UHGV virus genome: UHGV-0091505
Source: a virus
DNA length: 34,588 nucleotides
Strand: one strand, 5' to 3'
Shown: in pieces, positions 26 through 19,169 of the stretch
Position numbering within the stretch: the first letter of the stretch is position 1
Layout of the letters: every line of letters begins with the position of its first letter
Position numbers and translations under genes: made by a program
Notes under the pieces: model-generated
The model's database searches: none
The model's input: the letters and a program-made list of their open reading frames with translations, nothing else
Told to the model about the DNA's origin: nothing

Positions 26-1426
26 TTAGTCTCCAGGATTCCCGGGGCGGTTCAGACCGCAATAAAATCCTGTTCCTGTACCGTTTGTGTAAAGTGCGTG
101 ACCTTCATGCCCTTGTGAAGCAGTGATATTTTTATGGTATATTCCTCCCACTTTTTGGTTGTCTTTGACTACACCCTTTACACCAAAATCACATGTGTCA
201 AATCTCGCGTATCCTATGCATGCACTTACTCCAGTTAGCCAAATGCCAGTTATGAATCCATAGACTTCAATGTCATTAATATAGAAATCAGAAATGTCCC
301 TTTCTTCATAATAGTTCAACCATACTGGACATCCATAATCTTTCCAGTCTCCAGATGTTACATATGAATATCCAAGGGTATTACTATTAATTACAGTTGT
401 CCTGTCCCCATTATATGTAAACTTCCAATATCCCAACATTTTCACTCGAGGTGTACGAATTTCGAACACTGGATAACCCCACAACAATTGCTCAAAGGTG
501 GCATTATCAGAAATTAGAACCATGTCAGGATTTGGAATTATAATCCACCCAGATATAGTGTATTTTAGATTTCCAAACTCTATTCTCTTTGCTCCACTAT
601 TCAGAGCAGCATTAATTGCTGCCATATCAGCATCGGCATCACCATTTCCTACCGGTCCGAAATCTGCAACAGTAACTGTTTCAGCCATCTTGTCATGGAC
701 TGTCCTTGTAACAGAATTAGAATAAGGTTGCTTAACTGCAACTAAAGCATCCCCCTTCCCATCGGAAGAACTTGCTAACTGAATAAATACATCAGATGCT
801 GATCCAGATGGAGGAATAACAACAATCGCATTACCATCATTATCAAATGCTGGCATCATATTCCGCCGAACTGCTGCTGGAGGTAACTGATTTATTGGCT
901 CTGGAACGCGGAGAGTTCGGCTAAGATTAGAGGATACAATGGTATCTACATAGTTTTTTGTAGCTGCATCCTGAGGGTCGCGTGGGTCTTTCAGATTACG
1001 AATATAGTTATTCAGAGCATTGTACCAGTTAGCAATACTTGACGGCTTGCGCAGTGCCAGGCTAAACCAACTGCGAACATGCTGAATCAGCATCGTTAGC
1101 TTATCAAGCGCATCCTCATGCACCTCGGCAAAGAACTTACCCTGATTGCGCAGATCAGTTTCCTGAGTAACTGGCAGTTCTCGTAATATAGAAATCTGAT
1201 AACCGTTAGCCAATGCCTTCGACAGAATTACATTACCGCCGTTGTACCCTCCCGCACCAGTTACTGTGTAATCAGTATCAAGAGCCAGCACAGCGATATT
1301 TTCATCAAGGTCAACCACCTGAACAACCAGGTCGGATTTGTTGAAAATGCGGAAGGTATACGGAAACGATGTCGTAACGCCGTTGCCGGTGTATTCGTTG
1401 TGGTCAACTTCGGTTGAGACCGTCAT
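26..1426 (-). CDS. tail fibre / tailspike protein
   Basis: 466-aa ORF; N-terminus MTVSTEVDHNEYTGNGVTTSFPYTFRIF is the conserved phage tail-fibre N-terminal anchor motif; mid region ADFGPVGNGDADADMAAINAALNSGA resembles the start of tailspike beta-helix domains; stop TAA at 26-28. Confidence 0.75.
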   Translation of the reverse strand: MTVSTEVDHNEYTGNGVTTSFPYTFRIFNKSDLVVQVVDLDENIAVLALDTDYTVTGAGGYNGGNVILSKALANGYQISILRELPVTQETDLRNQGKFFAEVHEDALDKLTMLIQHVRSWFSLALRKPSSIANWYNALNNYIRNLKDPRDPQDAATKNYVDTIVSSNLSRTLRVPEPINQLPPAAVRRNMMPAFDNDGNAIVVIPPSGSASDVFIQLASSSDGKGDALVAVKQPYSNSVTRTVHDKMAETVTVADFGPVGNGDADADMAAINAALNSGAKRIEFGNLKYTISGWIIIPNPDMVLISDNATFEQLLWGYPVFEIRTPRVKMLGYWKFTYNGDRTTVINSNTLGYSYVTSGDWKDYGCPVWLNYYEERDISDFYINDIEVYGFITGIWLTGVSACIGYARFDTCDFGVKGVVKDNQKVGGIYHKNITASQGHEGHALYTNGTGTGFYCGLNRPGNPGD

Positions 1427-1530
1427 GTTAAATCTCCAGATAGTCGCAGCACCCGTTGCGCCGCATATCTGGTTATTCTATTACCTGAAAAACCATATAT
1501 GGATATATAGCTCATGAATACGGACAGATA

Positions 1531-1545
1531 TTACCTTTCAGGTGA
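1531..1545. promoter_or_regulatory. operator-like site TTACCTTTCAGGTGA (variant of the prophage operator motif)
   Basis: TTACC-N5-GGTGA; same variant class as a site in the cI/cro intergenic region; lies 40 bp upstream of the LexA box. Confidence 0.35.
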
Positions 1546-1582
1546 TTCGCAAAACGTGCTGGATAGCAAACAAATTATTTGC

Positions 1583-1602
1583 TACTGTATAAATATACAG
1601 TT
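1583..1602 (+). promoter_or_regulatory. LexA (SOS) box TACTGTATAAATATACAGTT
   Basis: CTGT-N8-ACAG with AT-only spacer at 1585-1600, flanked TA..TT; about 20 nt upstream of SD GGAGAAG and ATG at 1622. Confidence 0.7.
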
Positions 1603-1621
1603 ATTGCATGGAGAAGATAAG

Positions 1622-1879
1622 ATGCAGCAGTATCACTATCCACTGGAAGACGGATTTACCGAAAGGATTCACACGCCGGGAGGCGTCAGGTCACTGGTGG
1701 AGGGATCGCACTTGATGAAATTACTCCGGGATCTCGATAAGGATGGATTTAATGTCGATGGCCCACTTGCCGAACTGACTGCACTGATTAACTACGTCAC
1801 CAGCTCACAGATGTCTATGCATGATCTGCAAACACATCTCGACTATTGTGCCGAACAATTACGAAAACAAACCAGATAA
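1622..1879 (+). CDS. small SOS-controlled antirepressor-like protein (standalone paralog of the C-terminal domain of the downstream Bro-N antirepressor)
   Basis: ATG at 1622 preceded by GGAGAAG; the track start at 1514 would place the LexA box inside the ORF; translated product aligns with the last ~75 aa of the 2192-2878 protein (PGGVRSLVEGSHLMKLL..LAELTALINYV..DLQTHLDY versus PSGVLGLTENSLLMNLL..AAELTTMFCYI..DIQTHAEY). Confidence 0.55.
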   Translation: MQQYHYPLEDGFTERIHTPGGVRSLVEGSHLMKLLRDLDKDGFNVDGPLAELTALINYVTSSQMSMHDLQTHLDYCAEQLRKQTR

Positions 1880-1882
1880 GGT

Positions 1883-1925
1883 TTGCAATTACCAAGTGGA
1901 GTACTTATATTTACCTTTGCGGTAA
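1883..1925 (+). promoter_or_regulatory. sigma70-type promoter (TTGCAA-17 nt-TATATT) with operator palindrome TTACCTTTGCGGTAA abutting the -10
   Basis: -35 at 1883-1888, -10 at 1906-1911, perfect TTACC-N5-GGTAA at 1911-1925; same -10/operator juxtaposition as at the pL-like promoter. Confidence 0.45.
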
Positions 1926-2019
1926 ATTTACATCGCACTCCTCTTGTGCCATAGTAATCTGGCACTGGCAAAATCCAGTGCCGGGATTGGCGTCCTTGGT
2001 TACTACAGAGGCACATATG

Positions 2020-2036
2020 CCGCATAAGCGGTTTTT
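2020..2036 (+). terminator. weak intrinsic terminator-like hairpin (CCGC-ATAA-GCGG followed by 7 T)
   Basis: Short GC stem plus T-run in the leader between the small antirepressor paralog and the Bro-N gene; stem is only 4-5 bp. Confidence 0.3.
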
Positions 2037-2191
2037 TTATGTGTAAAGCGCACCTATTCTATGGTGGGCTGTGTGGGGGCACCGAAAGGTGCGCCGGGTC
2101 CTTTGTAGCCGGTTACGCCAACCCTGCACAGTTCACCACCAACCGATTGGCGTCGGTAGTGGTGATTAACCTAACTACAAAGGTGATCACT

Positions 2192-2878
2192 ATGACTGCT
2201 AACGTAACCCCATCTGTTTTTCATTTTGAATCAGAAGCAACCATTCGAGCCATTGTTATTGATGGAAATCCCTGGTTTGTTGCCAAAGACGTTATTAAAG
2301 CTCTTCAACTGACAAACCCGACTATGTCAATAAAATCTCTTGATGATGATGAAAGGGCTAAATTTAACTTAGGCCGTCAAGGCGAAACCAATATTATCAA
2401 CGAGTCAGGCCTCTACACACTGATCCTCCGCTGCCGCGACGCAGTGACACCAGGCACTATCCCCTACCGCTTTCGTAAATGGGTTACAGGTGAGGTACTT
2501 CCTCAGATCCGCCGCACCGGAAGTTACATTAAAAACTCGCTCTCGCAGGAAGAACGGATAAAGATGGTTGCCGACCAGGTAGCCAACGCCACGGCGTCAG
2601 CAGTGATGCAGGCGATGAAGATAGAGAACAAAACCTACAACGCCCCACTGAAGCCCGGCTACCGCAGCCTGATACATTCTCCGTCTGGTGTTCTCGGCCT
2701 GACGGAGAACTCACTGCTGATGAATCTGCTGAACCAGTTACAGGAAGACGGGCACGATGTATCTGGCGCGGCAGCGGAGCTGACCACCATGTTCTGCTAC
2801 ATCGTCGGTGTGAGCAAATGCCTGCGTGATATCCAGACACACGCGGAGTACATCAACGACAAGGCTGGGTTCTTCTGA
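2192..2878 (+). CDS. phage antirepressor, Bro-N domain family (Ant-like)
   Basis: ATG at 2192 with SD AAAGGTGA; N-terminal region FHFESEATIRAIVIDGNPWFVAKDVIKALQL..ESGLYTLILRCRD is a Bro-N/antirepressor signature; C-terminal domain is paralogous to ORF 1622-1879. Confidence 0.8.
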   Translation: MTANVTPSVFHFESEATIRAIVIDGNPWFVAKDVIKALQLTNPTMSIKSLDDDERAKFNLGRQGETNIINESGLYTLILRCRDAVTPGTIPYRFRKWVTGEVLPQIRRTGSYIKNSLSQEERIKMVADQVANATASAVMQAMKIENKTYNAPLKPGYRSLIHSPSGVLGLTENSLLMNLLNQLQEDGHDVSGAAAELTTMFCYIVGVSKCLRDIQTHAEYINDKAGFF

Positions 2879-2943: not shown

Positions 2944-3084
2944 TTATGACAAGCCTATGTACCCTGCTACACCAGATAATATCAAAATAGCTGCAACAGC
3001 AAATTCGCCATCGTCAATGATACATTTACGGTTCATAACGCCAAGTGCAACAAGCGCAAACACAACAAGAATAAAAGCAATCAT
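2944..3084 (-). CDS. small hydrophobic two-segment membrane protein (46 aa), not in the supplied ORF track
   Basis: Hand translation: MIAFILVVFALVALGVMNRKCIIDDGEFAVAAILILSGVAGYIGLS; ATG 10 nt after the stop of the upstream 824-aa gene, same strand. Confidence 0.3.
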   Translation of the reverse strand: MIAFILVVFALVALGVMNRKCIIDDGEFAVAAILILSGVAGYIGLS

Positions 3085-3093
3085 TTCTCATCC

Positions 3094-5568
3094 TTATTGC
3101 GGAGTGACATCCTGTGGTCGCCACCAGTATGTCTGGTTAAACTCTTTCTTCGAACGTTGCTCCATTTTACGCAAATAACCTGGTGAAAAATACTCCTGCA
3201 TCTGGTTAAAGATCATGTGATCGAGAGCCGCCTTTAAGTACCAGAGATTCGCACCTGGCATCAGACCTTTCCCCAGCTTAACCAGATCACCACCAGTCTG
3301 CTCATTCTTCCCTTCCACAGCATTTAACGGTATGCCCTGAGCAATCTTCACTACGTCATCAACCAGGCCAGCTACCGGGCCAAGCATCGACGCCAGCGCG
3401 CCGCTTCCGTACCTAGTGTGATCTGACAATAAAAAGTCACCGTAAAGGCCAAGACCACCACCTTTCAGTAGAGCACCAAGCCAAAATTTAGCAGCATCTT
3501 CTCCTGTCATCTCGCGAGGATTACGACCAGACGCAAGGTCGTTAAGTTGCTGCGACAAAGCGCCAAGAATGGTCGTACTGGCAATAAACGTCGCAATATA
3601 TGCCGCACGCCCACCAGCAGACGGCATACCCATAGCGCGTGACCAGTGACGCATAACCACCGAGATAGGGAACGATTTAAACAGGAAAACACTTCTCGTT
3701 AATTCACCTTTCCATGTCCCACGCTGAATACCAGAACCGGTTATCAGTTGCTCACGTGCGCCAGGTGTAATAACAGCCATATCAACTTCTTCAGTTACGG
3801 CACCGAGCAGTTTACGCATTGCCTCAAATTTCACGCGTTCAGGCTCACCAAGATGTTTAACTACTGAATCAGGGATACGCATAATGCTTTCCGGTGTTAG
3901 CATCGTATTATTACCGTTCCCCCAGTCCTCCTGTTGCGCCAGCTTCCATACACTCCAGTCTGTGTCAGTAATCCCTTTACTTTTCAGGATACGAAAATCA
4001 GAGTCATCGAGGCTACGAAGGTCTGGTGTCCGTGACACTACTTCTCCCAGGCTTCCCATCATGGTTACGCCATAGGCGCGCTTGTGCGCATCTGACCATG
4101 CTGTAAGCCCACTGGCACGCATTACCGCCGTTGCCGCCCAACGAGACACAGACGGCCCCATATTATCCATCGCCCAGCGGTTAACGCTGCCAAGTAGAGA
4201 TTCCATCGCCAGACCAGCGCGGCGCGCCCGCGCAAGCTCAGTACGGTTCGTTGGGTCCATAGCTTCAAGCTGGTTGCGGAATAACTGGTTCATTGGAAGG
4301 TTGGTCACCTTCGCAGACAGATACATGGTTCCAAGATCAGAGAACGATGACAGCAACGCGGATCCGAGTCTGCTGGCAACCAGCCAGTTGCGGATATTGT
4401 CAGACCATCGCGCGATGTGAGGATTCGCAACAGGCTGTGTCTTTCCGGAAATAAAGTTGTACAGATTCTCTGTGTTGTTCGCCAGCCGCTCGACTTTACC
4501 GGTTTTACTCGGGTTAGCTGTTGCCGTTTCTGCCTTCACCTGATCAAGAAGGGAACGGAAAACATGATCGGGGTTTGGGCCATATGTTTCCACCAGAGCA
4601 ATATCTTTACTGATCCCTTCCAGGTGACCGACCATGATTTCCCATAGAGAGCGATCGCCATAAAGTTGCTGATATTGCAGATAGGAATCTGCATCTTTGA
4701 AATGTATCTGTCGTGATGCATTACCACGGTTAGCACGTGCACCGGAAATTCGCATTCCGGTATCAGTAAGCTTATTCAGCCCACCAGTAGCGATCGTGTT
4801 ATAAGCCTCTCCAAGAAATGCAGACAACTCGACATCGTTCATCAGTTGTCCATCGGCTCGGGTATAATATTTGCGATCCAGCTTACCTATAACATCGCTA
4901 ACCCATTTATCTTTTGATACCGCCCCAACCTTTCCCATAGAATGATGTTGAGGGATCCCCCAGTTTTCGAGATAGCCAATGTCCCCACCAGCATCATTAA
5001 ACCGGCGGCGCAGTAGCTCTGTCACTTCTCTCCACGCCTTAGCACCTTTTCTTGCTTTAGCATTGCCAGTATTTTGCCCTCGCATTTCATATACCAGGTC
5101 ACGCACGCCCGCTTCATCTTCAAACAGACCAAAAAAGCGAGGATCAACTGCTTCGAATGCCTCCTGCAATTGACTCAATGCATAATCACGGGTGGCTTTT
5201 GTTCTGGATTCAACAGAGAGGAAATTCGATTTACCGTCTGCATTAAAAGCAATAGTACGGTTAAGAGCGCCAAGTTTCCCATCAGCCCCTTGATAGCTAT
5301 TGATAAATTTATCCAATCTCTGACGTGCGGCTATAGTGAGGGCCACACGACGTTTCTTTAATACCGCTTCTCGCTGTAATTCTTCAGATGCCAATTGTGC
5401 TGCACGATATAGCCGCTCTGATTCGGAAAGTTGTCTCCATGACATCGGGTCATCACGAGCAATGGAGCGCATATTTCGATAAATGCGGTCTTCAATGTTC
5501 TGTATTTCTCGCGCCGTTAACGTGCGCTGCGCCGCCTGCTGAACCGCTTGTATACATTCCTGTCTCAT
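3094..5568 (-). CDS. internal virion / ejection protein (large, gp16-like position)
   Basis: 824-aa ORF in the podovirus core-protein block between the tail tubular genes and the tail fibre; glycine-rich hydrophobic stretch near C-terminus; assignment by position and size. Confidence 0.5.
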   Translation of the reverse strand: MRQECIQAVQQAAQRTLTAREIQNIEDRIYRNMRSIARDDPMSWRQLSESERLYRAAQLASEELQREAVLKKRRVALTIAARQRLDKFINSYQGADGKLGALNRTIAFNADGKSNFLSVESRTKATRDYALSQLQEAFEAVDPRFFGLFEDEAGVRDLVYEMRGQNTGNAKARKGAKAWREVTELLRRRFNDAGGDIGYLENWGIPQHHSMGKVGAVSKDKWVSDVIGKLDRKYYTRADGQLMNDVELSAFLGEAYNTIATGGLNKLTDTGMRISGARANRGNASRQIHFKDADSYLQYQQLYGDRSLWEIMVGHLEGISKDIALVETYGPNPDHVFRSLLDQVKAETATANPSKTGKVERLANNTENLYNFISGKTQPVANPHIARWSDNIRNWLVASRLGSALLSSFSDLGTMYLSAKVTNLPMNQLFRNQLEAMDPTNRTELARARRAGLAMESLLGSVNRWAMDNMGPSVSRWAATAVMRASGLTAWSDAHKRAYGVTMMGSLGEVVSRTPDLRSLDDSDFRILKSKGITDTDWSVWKLAQQEDWGNGNNTMLTPESIMRIPDSVVKHLGEPERVKFEAMRKLLGAVTEEVDMAVITPGAREQLITGSGIQRGTWKGELTRSVFLFKSFPISVVMRHWSRAMGMPSAGGRAAYIATFIASTTILGALSQQLNDLASGRNPREMTGEDAAKFWLGALLKGGGLGLYGDFLLSDHTRYGSGALASMLGPVAGLVDDVVKIAQGIPLNAVEGKNEQTGGDLVKLGKGLMPGANLWYLKAALDHMIFNQMQEYFSPGYLRKMEQRSKKEFNQTYWWRPQDVTPQ

Positions 5569-9898: not shown

Positions 9899-10438
9899 TT
9901 ATCGACCGGTTGGAGTGCCAACAGCAGCAGAAATCGGCGCAGCCTTCTGAGAGAACGGGCTCCACGTTCCTCCGCCCATCTGGTATGCACCGTATGCTTT
10001 TAGTGGTGCCGTTAACAAAGTGCTGGTCATCGATGATTTAGCAGCCGACTGAGCAGCAGCCCCCTGTGCCCGAGCATTCATTCCCTGAACCTGATACCCA
10101 TATGCCTCACGCTGAGCGTTATTCACTGTCGTTAACGCATCAAGAGTGCCGAACTGAGCATTATCCGCAAAAACGTCAAGAGCTGTTCCGCTACTTAATT
10201 CCGCACCGGTAGCCCCCATAGTGGCCGCCGCAGTGCCTGAGCGTTGACGCATTTCACGACGACGCTGATCCGCTTCAATATTCCCACGATTGATTGAATC
10301 CTGTGCCTGAGCTTCAGCAATTTCAGCATTCCGATCAGCTATGGCTGACTGGTATTTTGCCTGCTTGCTCTGGCTGTACATTGACGCGGCTGTGGATGCC
10401 ACTGTGACGGCAACCAATGCGATGGCTGGGTTACACAT
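9899..10438 (-). CDS. internal virion protein B-like (small Ala/Gly-rich structural protein)
   Basis: 179 aa, hydrophobic N-terminus, low complexity; position equivalent to T7 gp14. Confidence 0.4.
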   Translation of the reverse strand: MCNPAIALVAVTVASTAASMYSQSKQAKYQSAIADRNAEIAEAQAQDSINRGNIEADQRRREMRQRSGTAAATMGATGAELSSGTALDVFADNAQFGTLDALTTVNNAQREAYGYQVQGMNARAQGAAAQSAAKSSMTSTLLTAPLKAYGAYQMGGGTWSPFSQKAAPISAAVGTPTGR

Positions 10439-10902
10439 TATTTTCTCTCCATGTGAAATCTGTGGAAATTAAGACCAAGAGCACCATAAGGCGCGGCTTC
10501 TTCAAGCCTGAATCCAAGCCAGTGCAGCCATGCTTTGGCAACATGGTTTCGCTCGTCGACGTAGTTTTCCAGGCGCGGATAAACTGCCAGCATCTGCTGC
10601 AATACAGGGCGGCAGTGGCGCAGAAATGTCTTCTGATATTTTTCAATACGGCTGGTTCCGACCAGCCAGGGCGTACCATTGCCACCGATCATTGACGCCG
10701 GAGATACGCCAAACATGGTTACCAGTTCTCCGTTCGCAAATCCTGACCAGGCCATAGTCGCAGTACGCAGACCAACACGCAGCGCATCTTCGGTAGTCAT
10801 CAGTGATACCGCATACAGTTCGTCAATATCAGCCTGACGAACATCCGGCAAAATCATCTGAAGATGCTCTTCGGTTGCGGGAATAATTCGAACATCGATC
10901 AT
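10438..10902 (-). CDS. internal virion protein A-like / virion assembly protein
   Basis: 154 aa, overlapping-stop coupling with flanking genes; position equivalent to T7 gp13. Confidence 0.4.
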   Translation of the reverse strand: MIDVRIIPATEEHLQMILPDVRQADIDELYAVSLMTTEDALRVGLRTATMAWSGFANGELVTMFGVSPASMIGGNGTPWLVGTSRIEKYQKTFLRHCRPVLQQMLAVYPRLENYVDERNHVAKAWLHWLGFRLEEAAPYGALGLNFHRFHMERK

Positions 10903-13373: not shown

Positions 13374-13981
13374 CAGGACAACCTCGCAATGGTAAACTCG
13401 TCAACCGGTGGCTGTGGTTCCTGTGATTCATTCTGGCTATGCGAGCCAGCACTAAGAATCACGCGATTGTACATATTGAGGGCAAACGTACCGAGGTCTG
13501 CATTCCCAGTCAGCGCCATGTTAATAGCTGCCGCAAGACGCCAGGCCAACGCCTCCATAAAAATGGCATCAAACATGTTCACATCTGAAACGCGAGAGAC
13601 ATACTTGAGCCATGCCTGCGGCTGGTCTGTGTAGATCAACTTTCCTGTTCCGTTGGTGTCTGCACCAACTTCGTACTGAACGCGCATTGCTGCTGTTGGA
13701 TTGCGTACACCAGGAAGCATAATTTCAGTAATGCGCAGACAATCGGACGGGTACTGGTACGCATATTCCCAGTCAGGCGGTGGATTGCTCGTATCTGCAA
13801 GCGCCACGCGTTTGGTAGCAAAGTTCCAGTCAAAATCAGAAAGAACAGCATCACGGCAGGCCTCAAAGTGCAGCGAACATTCCCCCGCTTCCTTGCTGGC
13901 TTCCGTCAGGCTGTTAATGCTGCGGCTGTTGCCAATATTGGACAGCGCACGATTACAGATCTCTACTACAGAGGCCATCAC
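13373..13981 (-). CDS. tail tubular protein A-like (adaptor)
   Basis: 202 aa; N-terminal pattern (ICNRALSNIG....W.F) resembles T7 gp11-type adaptor proteins; position after head genes. Confidence 0.5.
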   Translation of the reverse strand: MMASVVEICNRALSNIGNSRSINSLTEASKEAGECSLHFEACRDAVLSDFDWNFATKRVALADTSNPPPDWEYAYQYPSDCLRITEIMLPGVRNPTAAMRVQYEVGADTNGTGKLIYTDQPQAWLKYVSRVSDVNMFDAIFMEALAWRLAAAINMALTGNADLGTFALNMYNRVILSAGSHSQNESQEPQPPVDEFTIARLS

Positions 13982-14301
13982 TCACCTCCGTTACCGTACA
14001 GAGTTTCAGCCGCTGATTTTTCTACATCCCTGGAAACAGGAGCGATCGCCATATCAGTGATCTGCAGATCGGCGCTGCGATTAACACCATCGTCAGTTTC
14101 TCTGGCAGACAGGCCTCGAATAACAGCCTTTGCAGTTATCATCACTTCTGTTCCGACGCCCTGAGGTTGCGCCTTCAGCTTATTCAATGTGTCGTTATTA
14201 AGAGTGATGCACAGCCCCCACGGGTATTCATCGCGAGTTCTGGTTTCTCCGCTCTCATCCTGGTAGCTGTCAGTGCCGGTTTTGAGGTTTACGAGTTCCA
14301 T
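13978..14301 (-). CDS. hypothetical virion protein
   Basis: Likely start is the ATG at 14301-14299 preceded by AGGAG (the track start at 14307 is a GTG two codons upstream). Confidence 0.45.
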   Translation of the reverse strand: MELVNLKTGTDSYQDESGETRTRDEYPWGLCITLNNDTLNKLKAQPQGVGTEVMITAKAVIRGLSARETDDGVNRSADLQITDMAIAPVSRDVEKSAAETLYGNGGE

Positions 14302-14317
14302 ATACACTCCTGCAATA

Positions 14318-14351: not shown

Positions 14352-14696
14352 TTACACGCCCAGTTCTTTACGCTTATCTGCGATCTTCTCGCGGAGCGTT
14401 TCGGCTTTGGCGTTATGGTGTGGCTTCTCGTTAAAGAGCAATTCGTACTCTTCACGGAGCTTATCCAGTTCACCATCATCTGACACATCGTTGATGATTT
14501 TGGTGCTGGTTGCTGCCATTGACACCTTTCCTGCAACTTTTGCTTTTGCCTGTCTGGCTGCATCGTTAACAGGTTCCAGTGCGCTACCAGGCTCACCTTC
14601 GTATTCGATTTCTGCCCCCTCCGGCCACAGAGTGTTATGGATATGAGAGAGGCGCAGAACGCGGTATCTTGGTTTCTCACCTGACATCGATATCAC
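14352..14696 (-). CDS. hypothetical head-associated protein
   Basis: 114-aa ORF, charged, between the decoration-like gene and the hairpin. Confidence 0.4.
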   Translation of the reverse strand: MISMSGEKPRYRVLRLSHIHNTLWPEGAEIEYEGEPGSALEPVNDAARQAKAKVAGKVSMAATSTKIINDVSDDGELDKLREEYELLFNEKPHHNAKAETLREKIADKRKELGV

Positions 14697-14697: not shown

Positions 14698-15135
14698 TTA
14701 ACCAGTTACTTTTGAGCGGATCGGATACGGCGTATTGGCATCAACATCAAGACTGATACCAGCAGTGAATTCGCCATCCGTTAGTGGGCCAGTTGCGACG
14801 GAGTAGTTAACACGCAGATATCGCTGAACACCGGCAGGAACCTTTGCAGAAACAACTCGTTTACCTGCTGTCAGGGCGGTCTTTGCCAGTGCACCACTAT
14901 CATAAATAGTGGTCCATGAGCTGTTATCCTCACTCGTCTGCAACTGGATGTTTACAGTTGCATCACCGCTTGCTGCGGCGGCTGTGTTAACCAGCACCCA
15001 AAACTCAAGCGGGTAACCCACGCCGATATCACGACGTTTTCCGTCAATTGGACCGAGATCGATTACGTCAGTAGAAGCCGCGGTATTCGTAACCGCCTGA
15101 GCTTCGGAGAACATCAACAGTTTGTCGGTGATCAT
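14698..15135 (-). CDS. putative capsid decoration / cement protein
   Basis: 145-aa ORF directly downstream of the major capsid gene; beta-rich composition; assignment by position. Confidence 0.4.
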   Translation of the reverse strand: MITDKLLMFSEAQAVTNTAASTDVIDLGPIDGKRRDIGVGYPLEFWVLVNTAAAASGDATVNIQLQTSEDNSSWTTIYDSGALAKTALTAGKRVVSAKVPAGVQRYLRVNYSVATGPLTDGEFTAGISLDVDANTPYPIRSKVTG

Positions 15136-15186: not shown

Positions 15187-16173
15187 TTACACCACGCGGG
15201 CTTCTGTTTCCAGAAGCGCATCAGTTTCACGGATTGGTACACCACGGAATGAAGTCCACCACTCGCCTTCTGTCTCTTTTACGCTGATCGCCAGAGATGT
15301 TTTCTCCAGAGATTGCAGATCAAGAGCCTGGCCTACAGTGCGGTTCATGTAGAACACCGGGCGGCCCATGCCACGATTTGGAATGCGATGCAGTGCTTTA
15401 ACCATCAATTTCGCAATATTTGCGGCAGAGGAAGGTTCTGAAAGATTGCTGACATCGATGTTTGCAATGCGAACAACATAACGCCAGTCACGCAGAGCAA
15501 GCCCGTTGTCCCATTTGTAATGGGTACGGTAGCCTTCGTACTTGCCGCCATTCGCATCTTCCAGTGTCACCTGGCCTTTATCTTCCATCTGAATGCCAGC
15601 CTTCTGCCCTTTCGGGAAGATGCCATGCACGGTGTTTTCGCCCCACACCACTAACCAGATTGAGGTGTTATCTGTACCCGTGCCACCAGCATCAATGATG
15701 TTCTGAGCATTACCTGCAGACAGGCTGGAATAGCGGGAGGACAGTCCCATAAACTGCTGAGGGTTAACGCTGGAATCACCATAAAACAGCGTCTGCGCCA
15801 TCTGCTGATTCATCGCTTCAATAAATGCGCGGTCTTCAGACAGGCGGAATTCGGCGGTATTACCGTTCAGATCAGCCAGTGACTTATCGACTTCAGCATA
15901 GGTTTCCAGCATGCCCACGGAATCGGTTACCTGCACTGTGGTTGATTTGCTTGGCTGTACGCCATAGTTCAGCAAACGCCAGGTAGCTGAAGGTAAACCA
16001 GAACGAATGGTGGTTCGGTGTCCGGTAGGAAGGTTACCTTCGACAAAAGGCATATCCTGAAGGATCGGGTTAGTTTGACCGAGAAGCTCGATAATCTTAT
16101 CGACTTTCCCGTTTGGATCGACGCGCTTACCCCAGTCAGCCAGCGTTAGCGCAGTTAAGCCTTTAACAGCCAT
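15187..16173 (-). CDS. major capsid protein
   Basis: About 328 aa following the scaffold gene; probable start is the third codon ATG (16173), which has proper spacing from GAGAGGA; size and order match T7/epsilon15-type capsid genes. Confidence 0.75.
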   Translation of the reverse strand: MAVKGLTALTLADWGKRVDPNGKVDKIIELLGQTNPILQDMPFVEGNLPTGHRTTIRSGLPSATWRLLNYGVQPSKSTTVQVTDSVGMLETYAEVDKSLADLNGNTAEFRLSEDRAFIEAMNQQMAQTLFYGDSSVNPQQFMGLSSRYSSLSAGNAQNIIDAGGTGTDNTSIWLVVWGENTVHGIFPKGQKAGIQMEDKGQVTLEDANGGKYEGYRTHYKWDNGLALRDWRYVVRIANIDVSNLSEPSSAANIAKLMVKALHRIPNRGMGRPVFYMNRTVGQALDLQSLEKTSLAISVKETEGEWWTSFRGVPIRETDALLETEARVV

Positions 16174-16187
16174 TGTCATTTCCTCTC

Positions 16188-16889
16188 TTATTTGCCATAG
16201 AGCACTTCGGCCGCACTACGCTGGCCTTCATTACCACCGGTGACCATGCCATCTTCAGACATCGCCTTTCCGATTTTCACGAACGTTTTGACCAGATCAG
16301 GGTGATTACCCAGCCCGGTGGCGTTCAGATACTCTTTGAGTTCAGGTGTCCCGAACTGGTCAAGCGCACGCTGTGCGGCGCTAAGGTTAGAAATCAACTT
16401 GTCGCCACCGATTTCTTTGTCAGCTTTTACATCCGCAGCCCACTGCTCGGTTGTTTTCTGCCAGGCTTCTGCCTGGCGCTGCTGAACACCTGCCAGAATC
16501 TTCGGGTAAGCATCAACCAGCTTTTGCGCTTGCTCGTTGGTCAGGTTAAGTTCTCGCGCCACCGGCTCGAATTCCTTCAACGCTTCTGTATCCAGCTCTA
16601 CGCCTTCGGCAGCCTGAAACTCGTACTTCTCAGGCGCCCCCTCCGGTTTATCGCCGTCCTTTTTTTCACCCTGCTTATCGCTTTCAGGCTTTTTGTCATC
16701 AGCAGGTTTATCGCCATCAGCAACAGGTTGTGTCTTATCACCTTCCTGTTGTGATGGATCACCAACTGGAGCAGGGTTATCACCTGCAGGCGCTGACGGT
16801 TCTGACGCAGCCGGAGCTGCTCCACCATCGACTGGTTGCTCATTGCAAAGACGGCGATACAGCAAACGCTCAAATAAATTCATGATCAC
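16188..16889 (-). CDS. scaffolding protein
   Basis: 233 aa, acidic Pro/Asp/Lys-rich low-complexity N-half and helical C-half, located between portal and capsid. Confidence 0.6.
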   Translation of the reverse strand: MIMNLFERLLYRRLCNEQPVDGGAAPAASEPSAPAGDNPAPVGDPSQQEGDKTQPVADGDKPADDKKPESDKQGEKKDGDKPEGAPEKYEFQAAEGVELDTEALKEFEPVARELNLTNEQAQKLVDAYPKILAGVQQRQAEAWQKTTEQWAADVKADKEIGGDKLISNLSAAQRALDQFGTPELKEYLNATGLGNHPDLVKTFVKIGKAMSEDGMVTGGNEGQRSAAEVLYGK

Positions 16890-17182
16890 TCCTGTTCACT
16901 GGCCTCTTTGGCCATCTTCAAATACTGTTCAGGGCAATGCGCCATAACGCGCTGAAACAGTTCCAGCGCCAGATTGCGTTGCCCCTCATTAAATGCCATT
17001 GCCATAGCGTCCATCGGTGAGATAGCGGAAAACACCAGGCCTTTCTCCAGCACAGACCAGACAACGCGACGCCCCTGTTCACTGCTCATGACAAAGCGAA
17101 TGTCATCAATTTCACGCTGTGCCATGTCACGTTGCTTACGGGCGTTTTCTTCTTTCAGTTGATCATCTTCGTATTCTGTCAT
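16886..17182 (-). CDS. hypothetical protein (between portal and scaffold)
   Basis: 98-aa ORF translationally coupled to the portal and scaffold genes. Confidence 0.45.
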   Translation of the reverse strand: MTEYEDDQLKEENARKQRDMAQREIDDIRFVMSSEQGRRVVWSVLEKGLVFSAISPMDAMAMAFNEGQRNLALELFQRVMAHCPEQYLKMAKEASEQE

Positions 17183-18858
17183 TGTGATTGCCCACCCTGA
17201 CCACTAACTGCATTCGCCATAGCTGACAAAACACTCGGATCAGAAGTTTTAGCTTCGCTTAGCGTCTTGGCACCCTGTGCCGCCGCCATCCCCATCGCCA
17301 TCATTTGTTGCTGCTGTTGCTGCTGTGCCCGTTGCTGGCGAGCCTGCTCAACCTGTTCCTGCGGAACAATGATGGTTGGAGACACTCCGGACATATCAGC
17401 GAATGCATCGATCGCCTGATCAACGTTGAGTTTGTCGAGAGCTTCTGGTTTCGCTTGCGCAAGTTGACCAATGAAGTTGACCGTAGACGCCAGACTGGAC
17501 AGGCCGATAGACTTCTGCGCCTGAGCCATGACGGAAATGTATTCGACCTTCAGTGGCATACCCTCCATCGCGTCAGGCGGTGGCGGCAGCATGTTTTTAC
17601 GCACCATCATCGAGAAAGCGCGGTCAATGAGAGGATTAAGACATTCGTCGTTCAGACGCTCCAGAACCGGCCCCAACATCAGAAGTTTTTCTTCTTTCAT
17701 TTCGATCACCGCTTCAACAGGCATCGAGCGGGTATTGATGTTCTGCAACATCATGAACAGATCGACAAAGTAGGCGCTGTTAATGATTTGACGAGTGTCC
17801 TGAATGTCTGCCACCAAATCTGCTGTACTGGGGTTAACCAGATAAGCAGGCCTGAAACCATCCTGACCAGTAATCTGATCGATATACGTGATGTCGCCAG
17901 GAAGAAGGGATGCGCGCTGATTCTTGAGGGAAGTCGGAGCAACCATCGGCGGATTGGTGGCTTTATCAATCAACTGTGACTTACGCTTCTGGAGAAGCTG
18001 CAATGCCTTAACAGGTCCAAGCGCCAGCATACCCGGGCATGATGATCCATAAACATCTTCGCCGTTAACTTCCCAGCGCGGAGCCATAATTGGAAACTCA
18101 TCGAATCCGGACTCACGCAACAACTTGTCGTTATCGCCACCAACCTCGTAATAAACCGATTTGAATGGCTTGTTCTTGCTATCCAGCTTCGATGTATCGC
18201 GGTCAATGTTCGGGTAAACCGAATGCATCACTTCAATCCACTTCTCGTAGGTGCCGCTTTCCCACATACTTTTTACGGATTCGCTGACGTTATTTAGCCC
18301 GAACTCCTGAACAAGCTGACGAACAGTCATAGAGAACTTGCGAAAACAGGTGTCCACACTGCCACGAGGTGAGTTAGCCAGGTAGTAACTGCCTATCGGG
18401 AATGGCATTGTGCGAATGATGTCCTCGTCATCCTCCAGCACTGCCATTGCACCAGTGCTGTATGTGCCGAGGCTTCCGTATAACTGCGGCAGCGACTGAT
18501 AGAGATTCGACTTATTGAACATATCGTTCATGCGGTTCTGCACCGCCTCAAGCCACAACTTAACAGGGCCATAATCCATCATTTCAGGATCTGGCGTAGC
18601 CAGGCGAAACCACGGACGCGCGGGGCTTGTGATGCCTGACATCATGCCGCTGGCGAGAGTGCGCGCCGCCATAGTCCCGGTCGAATCAATAATGCGTGTA
18701 TTGCGTCGATCGTTACGGTTGACCTCAGAAGTCAGAAAGCGGGAACCACGCGGGTTGATGTAATCACTCAACTCGCGCCAGTGCGGCTCGAACGACTGAC
18801 GCTCGCTTTCAAGTTGTGCGAACTGTTTGTTCAATCGCTCTTTAGTTGTTTCCGCCAT
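17179..18858 (-). CDS. portal protein
   Basis: 559 aa, position immediately after the terminase block, Gln-rich C-terminal tail; SD CGGAGTCATTGA before ATG. Confidence 0.8.
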   Translation of the reverse strand: MAETTKERLNKQFAQLESERQSFEPHWRELSDYINPRGSRFLTSEVNRNDRRNTRIIDSTGTMAARTLASGMMSGITSPARPWFRLATPDPEMMDYGPVKLWLEAVQNRMNDMFNKSNLYQSLPQLYGSLGTYSTGAMAVLEDDEDIIRTMPFPIGSYYLANSPRGSVDTCFRKFSMTVRQLVQEFGLNNVSESVKSMWESGTYEKWIEVMHSVYPNIDRDTSKLDSKNKPFKSVYYEVGGDNDKLLRESGFDEFPIMAPRWEVNGEDVYGSSCPGMLALGPVKALQLLQKRKSQLIDKATNPPMVAPTSLKNQRASLLPGDITYIDQITGQDGFRPAYLVNPSTADLVADIQDTRQIINSAYFVDLFMMLQNINTRSMPVEAVIEMKEEKLLMLGPVLERLNDECLNPLIDRAFSMMVRKNMLPPPPDAMEGMPLKVEYISVMAQAQKSIGLSSLASTVNFIGQLAQAKPEALDKLNVDQAIDAFADMSGVSPTIIVPQEQVEQARQQRAQQQQQQQMMAMGMAAAQGAKTLSEAKTSDPSVLSAMANAVSGQGGQSQ

Positions 18859-18872
18859 TTCAATGACTCCGG

Positions 18873-19079
18873 TTACTGACCAAGCAGCGTTTTACCGCTG
18901 GTATTAGCGGTTGATGTGTCGCCCTGAGAACCGGTAAGCAGCGTAGAACTACGACCAGCAGCAGCGCGACGGCGACGTGTTTCTTCGTCGCGGGCATCAA
19001 CAACTGCGGCATCCTGCTCCTGTGGTGCTGCCTGAACTTCTGGTGTTGCAGGCACTGATGGTGAGCTACCCATGCACAT
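18873..19079 (-). CDS. small hypothetical protein upstream of portal
   Basis: 68-aa polar Arg-rich ORF; its start is preceded by the same CGGAGTCATTGA sequence found before the portal ATG. Confidence 0.35.
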   Translation of the reverse strand: MCMGSSPSVPATPEVQAAPQEQDAAVVDARDEETRRRRAAAGRSSTLLTGSQGDTSTANTSGKTLLGQ

Positions 19080-19169
19080 ATCAATGACTCCGTACGCAAT
19101 TAAATTATTACCAATTTAACCATATATGATTTATTTATCGTAGATAGTTGACATTTAACGCACAAATTA

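What the first reader, a model, noticed from the sequence alone, without database searches (positions are those of the whole stretch)
26..19099. T7/epsilon15-like podovirus virion module under lambda-like temperate regulation
Gene order and sizes (portal 559 aa, scaffold, capsid ~330 aa, 202-aa and 823-aa tail tubular A/B-like pair, then 154/179/837/600/824-aa internal proteins and a tail fibre with the conserved N-terminal anchor) follow the T7-type core, yet the same element carries lambda P, lambda phosphatase and cI/cro-style immunity genes. This mosaic could be informative for how ejection-protein cores move between lytic and temperate lineages.
Basis: inference. Interest (0 to 1): 0.45.

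Follow-up and report, generated by a model that had tools for sequence, protein, structure and literature searches.

The report
Known phiV10/epsilon15-type temperate podovirus prophage
The window is an ordinary member of a well-studied group of temperate short-tailed E. coli/Salmonella phages (phiV10/epsilon15, genus Uetakevirus), so its T7-like tail and DNA-ejection genes sitting next to lysogeny genes are real but already known.

Summary

The element is a known one. Window 944-20000 is 96.7% identical to Escherichia phage phiV10, and 20156-34588 is 98% identical to phage PAS61. Every virion gene is collinear with epsilon15 gp3-gp20. 373 of 5,426 complete E. coli genomes carry most of it.

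The T7 relationship was tested here and mostly holds. It is supported for portal, adaptor (gp11 fold), nozzle (gp12), gp13, gp14 and the C-terminal half of gp16. It is not supported for the capsid protein, and gp15 is undetectable. Hardies et al. 2016 already published this.

"Lambda-like regulation" is only partly right:
- A lambda P homologue (30% identity) and a NinI phosphatase homologue (67%) are present.
- The immunity switch is the SPC32H-type Rep/antirepressor pair (PDB 5D50). A perfect LexA box lies upstream of ant and 11 Rep operator motifs are spread over the window. It is not a self-cleaving cI.

Two corrections apply. The 466-aa "tail fibre" is cut by an IS3-family insertion, which also forms the window's left edge. 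The "scaffold" is labelled "protease" in databases but looks like a scaffold.

Verdict: already known, low interest.

The parts
1..54 (-). Terminal ~54 nt of an IS3-family insertion sequence (IS end TGAACCGCCCCGGG..., reading leftwards out of the window). It truncates the tailspike gene.
   Evidence: Window 1-58 matches 12,323 places in 3,266 E. coli genomes. In L003 the IS3-family transposase CDS starts directly next to the match. Similarity to the IS stops at ~54-58.
26..1426 (-). Tailspike. The N-terminal virion anchor (aa 1-~280) is epsilon15 gp20-like. The receptor-binding part (aa ~290-457) is an orphan. The gene is interrupted at ~aa 457 by the IS.
   Evidence: 65% identity to e15 gp20 over aa 1-280. 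PDB 8ck1/28lx Carin-1 Dpo31 N-terminus, E 4.8e-27. PF03906 T7 tail-fibre N-terminus scores only 17.9 bits against a cutoff of 25.2. The C-terminal part has 5 weak partial homologues in 5.8e9 proteins.
1585..1600 (+). LexA (SOS) box CTGTATAAATATACAG, ending 21 nt upstream of the ant start codon.
   Evidence: The full context is TACTGTATAAATATACAGTT.
1622..1879 (+). ant: an 85-aa antirepressor of the SPC32H type.
   Evidence: PDB 5d50_E 'Anti-repressor protein', E 1.1e-45. 83% identical to e15 gp19.
2192..2878 (+). BRO-N domain protein whose C-terminal ~80 aa are a paralogue of Ant.
   Evidence: PF02498, E 7e-20. phrog_450 matches at residues 196-277. 40% identity to Ant. The start was taken from the RefSeq homologue in L004.
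2944..3084 (-). 46-aa hydrophobic protein, the last gene of the virion operon (phiV10p21-like). It is followed by a terminator-like hairpin at 2924-2907.
3094..5568 (-). 824-aa internal/ejection protein. It is the epsilon15 gp17 homologue and is homologous to the C-terminal half of the T7 gp16 family.
5574..7376 (-). 600-aa virion protein, the epsilon15 gp16 homologue. No T7 counterpart could be shown.
   Evidence: 32% identity to e15 gp16. No Pfam or PDB match. hhalign to T7 sets gives E >= 0.007.
7373..9886 (-). 837-aa internal protein with a lytic transglycosylase/lysozyme domain at ~aa 245-400. It is the epsilon15 gp15 homologue.
   Evidence: 59% identity to e15 gp15. PDB 9vvp_L, E 3.8e-38, and endolysin 7q47, E 2.6e-17, both over residues 249-398. 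PHROG endolysin and transglycosylase families match.
9899..10438 (-). 179-aa internal virion protein of the T7 gp14 family.
   Evidence: PF24072, 33.6 bits against a cutoff of 27. 68% identity to e15 gp14. hhalign to the gp14 set, E 4.5e-4.
10438..10902 (-). 154-aa protein, a T7 gp13 (IVP-A) homologue.
   Evidence: hhalign to the gp13 set: prob 96.2, E 2.3e-9, 134 columns. 62% identity to e15 gp13.
10902..13373 (-). 823-aa tail nozzle (T7 gp12 / tail tubular B type).
   Evidence: PDB 8ck1_A 'Tail Nozzle' (Carin-1), E 1.6e-217, and LME-1 orf18, E 1.6e-14. 88% identity to e15 gp12. hhalign to the T7 gp12 set: prob 93.8, E 1.7e-7.
13373..13981 (-). 202-aa head-to-tail adaptor (T7 gp11 / tail tubular A fold).
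   Evidence: PDB 8ck1_E, E 2.9e-26. The AF2 model has pLDDT 82.5. Foldseek gives Carin-1 at TM 0.82, T7 gp11 7box_M at E 3.9e-6, and KP32 tail tubular A; all of the top 30 are podovirus adaptors.
13978..14307 (-). 109-aa capsid staple protein (epsilon15 gp10 family).
   Evidence: PF21628, E 7e-52.
14352..14696 (-). 114-aa epsilon15 gp9-like protein of unknown role.
   Evidence: 40% identity to e15 gp9. phrog_590.
14698..15135 (-). 145-aa Bbp16-family capsid cement protein.
   Evidence: PF21190, E 1e-46.
15187..16179 (-). Major capsid protein of the epsilon15 gp7 family.
   Evidence: PF20911, E 2e-149. No profile similarity to T7 gp10 (E 0.77).
16188..16889 (-). 233-aa probable scaffolding protein. 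Databases label it 'protease'.
   Evidence: 75% identity to e15 gp6. The N-terminal half is acidic and Pro-rich low complexity and the C-terminal half is Ala/Glu/Lys-rich; no secondary-structure prediction was run. No protease domain was found. The best hhalign hit in its row is the T7-type gp9 scaffold set, E 0.0018, prob 15%.
16886..17182 (-). 98-aa Bbp19-family protein.
   Evidence: PF25181, E 6e-17.
17179..18858 (-). Portal protein (T7 gp8-type head-to-tail connector).
   Evidence: PF12236, E 1e-187. PDB 8ck0_A, E 4e-179. hhalign to the T7 set: prob 96.9, E 1.5e-10.
18873..19079 (-). 68-aa epsilon15 gp3 homologue, the first gene of the virion operon.
   Evidence: 88% identity.
19170..19184 (+). 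Rep operator motif (TTACC-N5-GGTAA, 1 mismatch) just upstream of the virion operon. Further copies lie at 1531, 1911, 22316, 22334, 25922, 25984, 28267, 28315, 29027 and 29089.
   Evidence: 11 sites against 0.49 expected. The same motif coincides with sites annotated 'repressor' in the epsilon15 record.
20248..22394 (-). Terminase large (491 aa) and small (224 aa) subunits.
   Evidence: 95% and 77% identity to e15 TerL and TerS. PF03592.
26036..27633 (-). Replication genes: a lambda P-family protein (266 aa) and a DnaT/HTH_36 initiator-like protein (271 aa).
   Evidence: PF06992, E 1.5e-56, and PF17948 plus PF13730. 30.5% identity to lambda P; no hit to lambda O.
28000..28230 (-). 76-aa Cro-position protein, divergent from rep.
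   Evidence: 76% identity to e15 gp39. No Pfam match and no similarity to lambda Cro.
28385..28969 (+). Rep: a 194-aa prophage repressor of the SPC32H type, with an HTH domain and no S24 peptidase domain.
   Evidence: PDB 5d50_A 'Repressor', E 4e-42, full length. Pfam finds HTH_3 only.
32620..33279 (+). Ser/Thr phosphatase, a lambda NinI homologue.
   Evidence: 66.8% identity over 217 aa, E 3e-110. PF00149.
33282..34538 (-). Tyrosine integrase.
   Evidence: PF00589, PF13356 and PF22022. 87% identity to the e15 integrase. Homologous prophages sit next to guaA.

Best explanation
Identity. The window is about 34.5 kb of a phiV10-like prophage (genus Uetakevirus, the epsilon15 group of temperate podoviruses) from E. 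coli. It runs from an IS3-family insertion inside the tailspike gene to just upstream of the integrase gene.

Virion genes. Window 2944-19079 (minus strand) is one late operon. It encodes:
- the portal, a probable scaffold, an HK97-fold capsid protein and two capsid-stabilising proteins;
- a dodecameric adaptor and a hexameric nozzle;
- a set of internal proteins: gp13-like, gp14-like, an 837-aa protein with a peptidoglycan-cutting domain, a 600-aa protein, and an 824-aa gp16-like protein.

Infection (inferred from epsilon15, T7, Carin-1 and LME-1 work). Six tailspikes dock by their conserved N-terminal domain onto the adaptor/nozzle. They cut the O-antigen. The internal core proteins then leave the head and build a channel across the cell envelope for the DNA.

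Lysogeny. Rep (28385-28969) maintains lysogeny by binding 15-bp TTACC-N5-GGTAA operators placed at the rep/cro divergent region, the early-left region, the replication region, the terminase genes, the virion operon and ant. Induction is by antirepression, not repressor self-cleavage. DNA damage removes LexA from the box in front of ant (1585-1600). Ant is then made and strips Rep from DNA.

Shown versus inferred. Shown here: sequence, family and fold assignments, the LexA box and the operator motifs. Inferred: stoichiometries, the ejection pathway and inducibility.
For: Identity to known phages:
- 96.7% over 91% of window 1-20000 to phiV10, and 98% over 85% of 20000-34588 to PAS61.
- Collinear blastn alignment from 774 to 22434 with phiV10.
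- 373 of 5,426 complete E. coli genomes hold at least 80% of window 10000-34588.
- Relatives lie beside guaA, the site shown experimentally for ZX5 (PMC9782041).

Virion genes:
- Gene-by-gene collinearity with epsilon15 gp3-gp20, at 28-88% identity.
- Pfam, PHROG and PDB assignments.
- Adaptor fold match to T7 gp11.
- In the 10x9 hhalign matrix the syntenic T7 partner is the best hit in 8 of 10 rows.

Lysogeny switch:
- Rep and Ant match both chains of PDB 5D50.
- A perfect LexA box lies upstream of ant.
- The operator motif occurs 11 times against 0.49 expected, and it matches the annotated epsilon15 repressor sites.

Literature: PMC4819975 (T7 homologies of the epsilon15 group), PMC7380047 (LexA-controlled Ant, citing Kim & Ryu 2013), PMC12407071 and PMC13317679 (Carin-1 and LME-1 tails are T7-like).
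Against: - The T7 relationship is undetectable for the capsid protein, the 837-aa protein outside its lysozyme domain, and the 600-aa protein.
- The adaptor and T7 gp11 are linked only at fold level and by a weak profile hit (E 0.003; nothing against the single T7 sequence).
- The tailspike is interrupted by an IS, and the lysis genes, any O-antigen-modification gene such as phiV10 oac, and the att sites lie outside the window. Whether this copy can make infectious particles is therefore unknown.
- No experiment on this element exists. Inducibility and operator binding are inferred from homologues.
Confidence: 0.95

Rival explanations
1. The element is regulated like lambda. A cI-type repressor self-cleaves on RecA activation, and Cro, N and Q drive the lytic cascade.
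For: The repressor and the cro-position gene are divergent. Lambda P-family and NinI-family genes, Ea22 and Lar are present.
Against: Rep has no S24 peptidase domain and gives no BLASTP hit to cI. The 76-aa protein gives no hit to Cro. No O or Q hit was found. Rep and Ant match the SPC32H Rep-Ant complex 5D50, and a perfect LexA box precedes ant.
Confidence: 0.04
2. This copy is a defective (cryptic) prophage. The IS3-family insertion has destroyed the tailspike, so it cannot produce adsorbing particles and persists only as a chromosomal passenger.
For: The IS end at window 1-54 interrupts the tailspike ORF at ~aa 457. The one PHROG family that matches the receptor-binding part covers only profile positions 118-299 of 632, so a large C-terminal part appears to be missing.
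Against: All other virion, packaging, replication and lysogeny ORFs are intact and have the same lengths as in phiV10. The rest of the tailspike may lie beyond the IS. The window could also end here simply because an assembly broke at a repeat.
Confidence: 0.4
3. The window is a recent or artefactual chimera, either an assembly join or a new recombinant between a lytic T7-like phage and a lambdoid prophage.
For: Sequence identity to phiV10 ends within the tailspike gene near window 774-944, so the left ~0.8-0.9 kb differs from phiV10. GC content is lower at 1-2000 (0.428).
Against: The same gene order is found in independently sequenced phages (phiV10, PAS61, ZX5, phiv142-3, HEMP4) and in hundreds of complete genomes. 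No direct BLASTP similarity to any T7 protein was found, so nothing was recently acquired from a T7-like phage.
Confidence: 0.01

Closest known systems
Escherichia phage phiV10 (Uetakevirus phiV10), and close relatives PAS61, ZX5, phiv142-3 and HEMP4
   Same: 95-98% nucleotide identity. The gene order is the same from the tailspike N-terminus through the virion, terminase, replication, immunity and integrase genes. Relatives insert next to guaA.
   Different: The tailspike receptor-binding part differs: window 55 to ~770-940 is unmatched. An IS3-family element is inserted in the tailspike. The BRO/ant neighbourhood and some early genes vary. The window lacks the phiV10 oac gene, the lysis genes and the att sites.
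Salmonella phage epsilon15
   Same: Every virion gene from gp3 to gp20 has a collinear homologue at 28-88% identity. The integrase (87%), terminase (95% and 77%), Rep (42%), Ant (83%) and the operator motif are shared.
   Different: Only ~75% nucleotide identity over 43% of window 1-20000. The capsid protein is 43% identical and gp16/gp17 only 28-32%. Epsilon15 has no lambda P or NinI homologue in the compared set and carries other early genes (RuvC, cytosine methylase).
Salmonella phage SPC32H Rep-Ant lysogeny switch (PDB 5D50/5D4Z)
   Same: Rep matches over its full length (E 4e-42) and Ant matches at E 1e-45. A LexA box lies in front of ant.
   Different: The window also has a second, BRO-N-fused Ant paralogue. 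No binding or induction data exist for this element.
Phage T7 (gp8, gp11-gp17)
   Same: The order portal - scaffold - capsid - adaptor - nozzle - gp13 - gp14 - large internal proteins - fibre is the same. Homology or fold match was shown here for gp8, gp11, gp12, gp13, gp14 and the C-terminal half of gp16.
   Different: There is no BLASTP-level similarity. The capsid protein is not detectably related and no gp15 counterpart was found. Three large internal proteins replace T7's two, and the transglycosylase domain sits in the first of them, as in phiKMV and SP6 gp36, not at the gp16 N-terminus. Extra capsid cement and staple proteins are present. The terminase genes are not T7-like in position: TerS and TerL lie together upstream of the virion operon. 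It is temperate, with no phage RNA polymerase.
Marine podovirus Carin-1 (PDB 8CK0/8CK1) and Legionella phage LME-1 (PDB 9EFK)
   Same: The portal, adaptor, nozzle and tailspike N-terminus are sequence homologues of proteins with solved tail structures.
   Different: The hosts are different, the receptor-binding domains are unrelated, and identity is much lower than to epsilon15.
Phage lambda early region
   Same: Shared features are a P-family replication protein (30.5% identity), the NinI phosphatase (66.8%), Ea22 and Lar-type accessory genes, and a divergent repressor/cro-position layout.
   Different: No cI (S24), Cro, O or Q homologue was found. The phosphatase sits beside int rather than in a nin region. 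Recombination genes are RecE-like/RecT rather than Exo/Bet.

Membership tests
Genus Uetakevirus (epsilon15/phiV10-like temperate podoviruses) | High nucleotide identity over most of the genome to a recognised member | tested here: met
   96.7% over 91% of window 1-20000 to phiV10. 96.6-98% over 64-85% of 20000-34588 to phiV10 and PAS61. Collinear alignment from 774 to 22434.
Genus Uetakevirus (epsilon15/phiV10-like temperate podoviruses) | Collinear virion gene set gp3-gp20 of epsilon15 | tested here: met
   All 17 compared genes gave their best BLASTP hit to the syntenic epsilon15 gene, at 28-88% identity.
Genus Uetakevirus (epsilon15/phiV10-like temperate podoviruses) | Tyrosine integrase, with integration at the 3' end of guaA | tested here: inconclusive
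   The integrase is present and 87% identical to that of e15. Relatives lie next to guaA (PMC9782041). The window stops 50 bp beyond int, so the att sites and the flanking gene cannot be seen.
Genus Uetakevirus (epsilon15/phiV10-like temperate podoviruses) | Short-tailed virion morphology | not testable with these tools
   Shown by EM for the relative ZX5 (PMC9782041) and for epsilon15, but not for this element.
T7-type tail and ejectosome (Hardies 'transient tail homology group') | gp8-type portal | tested here: met
   PF12236, E 1e-187. hhalign prob 96.9, E 1.5e-10.
T7-type tail and ejectosome (Hardies 'transient tail homology group') | gp11-type adaptor (tail tubular A) | tested here: met
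   Foldseek of the AF2 model gives T7 gp11 7box_M at E 3.9e-6, prob 1.0, TM 0.57, and all top 30 hits are podovirus adaptors. The sequence-profile signal is weak (E 0.003; E 0.93 against T7 alone).
T7-type tail and ejectosome (Hardies 'transient tail homology group') | gp12-type nozzle (tail tubular B) | tested here: met
   hhalign prob 93.8, E 1.7e-7, 248 columns. Sequence homologue of the Carin-1 and LME-1 nozzles.
T7-type tail and ejectosome (Hardies 'transient tail homology group') | gp13 and gp14 small internal proteins directly after the nozzle | tested here: met
   154 aa against the gp13 set: prob 96.2, E 2.3e-9. 179 aa: PF24072 T7_gp14 above the cutoff.
T7-type tail and ejectosome (Hardies 'transient tail homology group') | gp15 (IVP-C) homologue | tested here: not met
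   The 837-aa and 600-aa profiles against the T7-type gp15 set give E 0.3 and 0.46. The literature also failed to find one (PMC4819975).
T7-type tail and ejectosome (Hardies 'transient tail homology group') | gp16 (IVP-D) homologue | tested here: met
T7-type tail and ejectosome (Hardies 'transient tail homology group') | gp17-type N-terminal fibre anchor | tested here: inconclusive
   PF03906 scores 17.9 bits, below the cutoff of 25.2. There is strong similarity to the N-terminus of the Carin-1 tailspike present in the solved tail complex.
Autographiviridae (true T7-like phages) | T7-type capsid protein, phage RNA polymerase and a lytic lifestyle | tested here: not met
   The capsid protein shows no similarity to the gp10 set (E 0.77). 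An integrase and repressor are present, and no RNA polymerase was seen among the ORFs scanned. It is not a member.
Lambdoid immunity and regulation | cI-type repressor with a LexA-like S24 self-cleavage domain | tested here: not met
   Pfam finds only HTH domains in the 194-aa Rep. There is no BLASTP hit to lambda cI.
Lambdoid immunity and regulation | Cro, O, and N/Q antiterminators | tested here: not met
   Lambda cro, O and Q gave no BLASTP hit with E <= 1 to the 28 window proteins compared. Lambda N was not in that set; N is covered only by Pfam scans of the early ORFs, which found no antiterminator family. A few small ORFs were not scanned.
Lambdoid immunity and regulation | P-type helicase loader and the NinI phosphatase | tested here: met
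   PF06992, E 1.5e-56, and 30.5% identity to lambda P. 66.8% identity to NinI.
SPC32H-type Rep/Ant antirepression switch | Homologues of both Rep and Ant | tested here: met
   5d50_A, E 4e-42, and 5d50_E, E 1.1e-45.
SPC32H-type Rep/Ant antirepression switch | LexA operator controlling ant | tested here: met
   A perfect CTGT-N8-ACAG box with an AT-rich centre lies at 1585-1600 and ends 21 nt before the ant ATG. Binding was not tested.
SPC32H-type Rep/Ant antirepression switch | SOS-dependent induction through Ant | not testable with these tools
   This needs induction experiments. For the relative ZX5, overexpressing the antirepressor lowered prophage numbers and overexpressing the repressor abolished free phage (PMC9782041).

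The most novel reading that the evidence does not exclude
The distal ejection genes may be an exchangeable cassette within otherwise ~97-98% identical Uetakevirus prophages. This window carries the epsilon15-type trio (837, 600 and 824 aa). A sister prophage (L004) carries a pair instead: a 905-aa protein plus a 1004-aa protein that is a true T7 gp16-family member.

The 600-aa and 824-aa proteins might together represent a split and diverged gp16. The 824-aa protein aligns to the C-terminal half of gp16. The 600-aa protein aligns only weakly, but collinearly, to the N-terminal part (E 0.007).

If so, these prophages would be a natural series for studying how ejectosome architecture changes while the tail stays fixed. 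Separately, the tailspike receptor-binding part has essentially no homologues in 5.8 billion proteins and could be a new depolymerase specificity.
Probability: 0.15. Interest if true: 0.35.

Novelty: already known. Interest (0 to 1): 0.12.

Why it matters
It matters little as a discovery. Temperate podoviruses with T7-related tails and internal ejection proteins have been described since the epsilon15 and phiV10 genomes (2007-2009). Their T7 homologies were mapped in 2016, and their Rep/Ant switch was solved structurally in 2016.

The useful outcome is a clean annotation of this window:
- which virion genes are and are not demonstrably T7-related;
- that induction is by a LexA-controlled antirepressor rather than cI cleavage;
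- that this copy's tailspike is hit by an IS.

The one point with some forward value is the alternative ejection-gene cassettes among near-identical prophages.

Tried and rejected
- Direct BLASTP of all window virion proteins against T7 gp8-gp17 gave no significant hit. The T7 link therefore cannot be shown at that level.
- hhalign of the adaptor alignment against the single T7 gp11 sequence gave nothing (E 0.93).
- hhalign of the 824-aa alignment against the single T7 gp16 sequence gave only a 35-column FKSFP motif (prob 4.9%). It became convincing only with family profiles and an intermediate sequence.
- PDB sequence searches of the 824-, 600- and 179-aa proteins found nothing useful.
- NCBIfam gave no names for ten virion proteins.
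- The search for homologous proteins for the 824-aa protein returned only close (87-96%) relatives. The representative search was needed to obtain diversity.
- The Kim & Ryu 2013 paper could not be read, so the LexA-Ant mechanism is cited through a review.
- Rejected readings: a P22-like virion (no P22-type family hits), siphovirus or myovirus tail components (none found), and the 233-aa protein as a protease (no protease domain found; its composition and weak profile hit point to a scaffold).

Full report
OBSERVATION. All are on the minus strand: 559 aa (17179-18858), 233 aa (16188-16889), 330 aa (15187-16179), 202 aa (13373-13981), 823 aa (10902-13373), 154, 179, 837, 600 and 824 aa (10438-10902, 9899-10438, 7373-9886, 5574-7376, 3094-5568) and 466 aa (26-1426). 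A 46-aa hydrophobic ORF (2944-3084) followed by a terminator-like hairpin closes the operon.

WHAT IT IS. By megablast, window 944-20000 is 96.7% identical to Escherichia phage phiV10 over 91% of the first 20 kb. Similar matches go to O157 typing phages 9 and 10, HEMP4, phiv142-3, PAS61 and ZX5. Epsilon15 itself matches at ~75% over 43%. The remaining 14.6 kb is 98% identical to PAS61 over 85%. Local blastn shows one collinear alignment with phiV10 from 774 to 22434. All these records are classified in genus Uetakevirus. 373 of 5,426 complete E. coli genomes hold at least 80% of window 10000-34588. In one of them the prophage lies with its integrase next to guaA. That is the integration site demonstrated for the close relative ZX5, which is also short-tailed by EM (PMC9782041). 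The window is therefore a piece of a very common, already named prophage type.

VIRION MODULE, GENE BY GENE. BLASTP shows that each virion protein has its best hit in the syntenic epsilon15 gene. Identities to the epsilon15 counterparts are:
- 68 aa = gp3 (88%); portal = gp4 (81%); 98 aa = gp5 (65%); 233 aa = gp6 (75%).
- Capsid protein = gp7 (43%); 145 aa = gp8 (35%); 114 aa = gp9 (40%); 109 aa = gp10 (44%).
- 202 aa = gp11 (85%); 823 aa = gp12 (88%); 154 aa = gp13 (62%); 179 aa = gp14 (68%).
- 837 aa = gp15 (59%); 600 aa = gp16 (32%); 824 aa = gp17 (28%); tailspike aa 1-280 = gp20 (65%).

Pfam assigns the portal to PF12236, the capsid protein to PF20911 (epsilon15 GP7), the 109-aa protein to the gp10 staple family, the 145-aa protein to Bbp16 (cement), the 98-aa protein to Bbp19, and the 179-aa protein to T7_gp14.

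PDB sequence searches find solved homologues in the tail of the marine podovirus Carin-1: portal 8ck0_A (E 4e-179), 'Connector' 8ck1_E (E 2.9e-26), 'Tail Nozzle' 8ck1_A (E 1.6e-217) and the tailspike N-terminus (E 4.8e-27). Homologues also exist in Legionella phage LME-1. PMC13317679 identifies the Dpo31 tail-spike protein, one of the chains of entry 8ck1, as a Carin-1 protein; the PDB entry title names Carin-1 directly. PMC12407071 states that the LME-1 and Carin-1 portal-adaptor-nozzle-fibre assembly closely resembles the T7 tail. The 837-aa protein carries a lysozyme/transglycosylase domain at about residues 245-400.

IS IT T7-TYPE? Direct BLASTP against T7 gp8-gp17 gives nothing, so I tested at profile and fold level.

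1. An AlphaFold model of the 202-aa protein (pLDDT 82.5) was searched with Foldseek against PDB. It returns only podovirus adaptors in the top 30. These include T7 gp11 (7box_M, E 3.9e-6, probability 1.0) and KP32 tail tubular protein A.

2. I built small family alignments for ten epsilon15-type proteins (window, epsilon15, BcepC6B, plus database homologues where available). I did the same for nine T7-type proteins (T7, SP6, phiKMV, gh-1, P-SSP7) and ran all 90 hhalign comparisons. The syntenic partner is the best hit in 8 of 10 rows:
- portal/gp8: prob 96.9, E 1.5e-10.
- 823 aa/gp12: prob 93.8, E 1.7e-7, over the central domain, as reported by Hardies et al.
- 154 aa/gp13: prob 96.2, E 2.3e-9.
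- 179 aa/gp14: E 4.5e-4.
- 824 aa/gp16: E 1.9e-4, 295 columns.
- 202 aa/gp11: E 0.003.
- 233 aa/gp9 scaffold: E 0.0018.
Off-diagonal comparisons have E >= 0.012, mostly above 0.1. There is no signal for capsid/gp10 (0.77), the 837-aa protein/gp15 (0.3) or the 600-aa protein.

3. The gp16 link was strengthened through an intermediate. A sister prophage (L004) encodes a 1004-aa protein that belongs to phrog_342 (E 8.5e-208). T7 gp16 and phiKMV gp37 fall in the same family. The 824-aa family profile matches that protein with prob 98.8, E 7.6e-17 over 452 columns. It matches the enlarged T7-family profile with prob 95.7, E 8.9e-9.

These results reproduce what Hardies et al. (PMC4819975) published. 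In their analysis epsilon15 has tubular tail A/B, IVP-A, IVP-B and IVP-D (gp17) homologues, has no recognisable IVP-C, and has capsid and terminase genes of a different lineage. It is not correct for the capsid.

REGULATION.
- P is real: PF06992, and 30.5% identity to lambda P.
- The phosphatase is real: 66.8% identity to lambda NinI.
- The immunity genes have a lambda-like divergent layout but are not cI and cro.

The 194-aa repressor has only an HTH domain and no S24 peptidase domain. It has no similarity to cI. It matches the SPC32H repressor in PDB 5D50 over its full length (E 4e-42).

The small gene at 1622-1879, between the tailspike and the virion operon, matches the antirepressor chain of the same complex (E 1.1e-45). 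A perfect LexA box, TACTGTATAAATATACAGTT, ends 21 nt upstream of its start codon.

A 15-bp palindrome, TTACC-N5-GGTAA, occurs 11 times with at most one mismatch, against 0.49 expected. The sites are:
- the rep/cro intergenic region (28267, 28315);
- downstream of rep (29027, 29089);
- the replication region (25922, 25984);
- the terminase 5' end (22316, 22334);
- upstream of the virion operon (19170);
- on both sides of ant (1531, 1911).

The same motif coincides with the sites annotated as repressor-binding in the epsilon15 record. The most likely mechanism is therefore as follows. Rep silences several promoters. DNA damage inactivates LexA. Ant is made and removes Rep. This was described for SPC32H (cited in PMC7380047). 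It is consistent with overexpression experiments in ZX5.

No O or Q homologue was found by BLASTP, and no antiterminator family by Pfam. The initiator-position protein is DnaT/HTH_36-like, and recombination is RecE-like/RecT.

CORRECTIONS AND SIDE FINDINGS.

IS insertion. Window 1-54 is the end of an IS3-family insertion sequence. It matches more than 12,000 places in E. coli genomes, and the transposase start codon abuts the match in an annotated copy. The tailspike ORF runs into it, so the last ~9 codons and the stop are IS sequence. The '466-aa tail fibre' is a truncated gene. The window probably starts where an assembly broke at the repeat.

Orphan receptor-binding domain. The tailspike receptor-binding part (aa ~290-457) has no match in the phage collection or in complete E. 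coli genomes. It has only five weak partial homologues among 5.8 billion proteins.

Scaffold versus protease. The 233-aa protein is called 'protease' in PHROGs and in some records. It has no protease domain. Its N-terminal half is acidic and Pro-rich low complexity and its C-terminal half is Ala/Glu/Lys-rich. It gives a weak but row-best profile hit to T7-type scaffolds.

Alternative cassette. In the sister prophage L004, the segment corresponding to window 2889-9949 is replaced by a different cassette with a 905-aa lysozyme-domain protein and the 1004-aa gp16-family protein. The window segment holds the 46-aa protein, the 824-, 600- and 837-aa proteins and the 3' end of the gp14-like gene. 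The flanks are 97-98% identical.

VERDICT. The finding is real, correctly read in its main point, and already known. The regulation is better described as SPC32H-type antirepression than as lambda-like.

Noticed in passing
window 1-54 (and the tailspike ORF 26-1426): The window begins inside an IS3-family insertion sequence that interrupts the tailspike gene at about aa 457. The ORF's last ~9 codons and its stop are IS sequence. This probably also marks an assembly break.
   Followed up: yes
window 55 to ~770 (tailspike aa ~220-457): The receptor-binding part of the tailspike is an orphan. It has no match in 50,697 phage records or 5,426 complete E. coli genomes, and only five weak partial hits (PF12708 pectate-lyase-like) in 5.8 billion proteins. 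GC content of 1-2000 is 0.428 against ~0.50 elsewhere.
   Followed up: partly
L004 3065-12450, corresponding to window 2889-9949: A 97-98% identical sister prophage carries a different distal ejection cassette. It has a 905-aa lysozyme-domain protein plus a 1004-aa true T7 gp16-family protein (phrog_342, E 8.5e-208) in place of the 837/600/824-aa trio. It also has extra YafO toxin, Arc and antirepressor genes. The breakpoints lie in the 3' end of the gp14-like gene and just after the BRO gene.
   Followed up: partly
window 5574-7376 (600 aa) and 3094-5568 (824 aa): The 600-aa protein aligns weakly (E 0.007, 107 columns) to residues 102-221 of the 1004-aa gp16-family protein. The 824-aa protein aligns strongly to residues 473-998. 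The order is collinear, which hints that the two genes may be a split, diverged gp16. The 600-aa evidence is not significant.
   Followed up: partly
window 2192-2878 (+): The BRO-N domain protein has a C-terminal ~80 aa that is a paralogue (40% identity) of the small antirepressor Ant. The element therefore carries two Ant-type domains, only one of which sits behind the LexA box.
   Followed up: partly
window 19507-19583 (+) and 19513-19764 (-): A tRNA-Arg (anticodon TCT) lies between the virion operon and the terminase genes. An 83-aa ORF annotated as a hypothetical protein in phiV10 (p04, phrog_4647) overlaps it on the opposite strand, so that ORF may be spurious.
   Followed up: no
window 19699-19714 and 15157-15172: Two further CTGT-N8-ACAG matches were found (3 in all against 0.71 expected). 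The one at 19699 lies upstream of the Gp49-family gene (19786-20157) and might be a second LexA site. Its spacer is less AT-rich than the one at ant.
   Followed up: no
window operator sites versus L006 epsilon15: The operator half-sites TTACC/GGTAA are identical in this phage and epsilon15, although the two Rep proteins are only 42% identical. This raises the question of whether they are heteroimmune.
   Followed up: no
window 16188-16889: The 233-aa protein is labelled 'protease' or 'endoprotease' in PHROGs and several GenBank records, seemingly by propagated annotation. No protease domain was found, and its composition and profile hit favour a scaffolding protein.
   Followed up: partly
window 3094-5568: The 824-aa family is very large: 5,136 representatives at 50% clustering with E <= 1e-3. 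It models confidently as an all-alpha protein (pLDDT 84, pTM 0.85), yet it has no close solved structure.
   Followed up: yes
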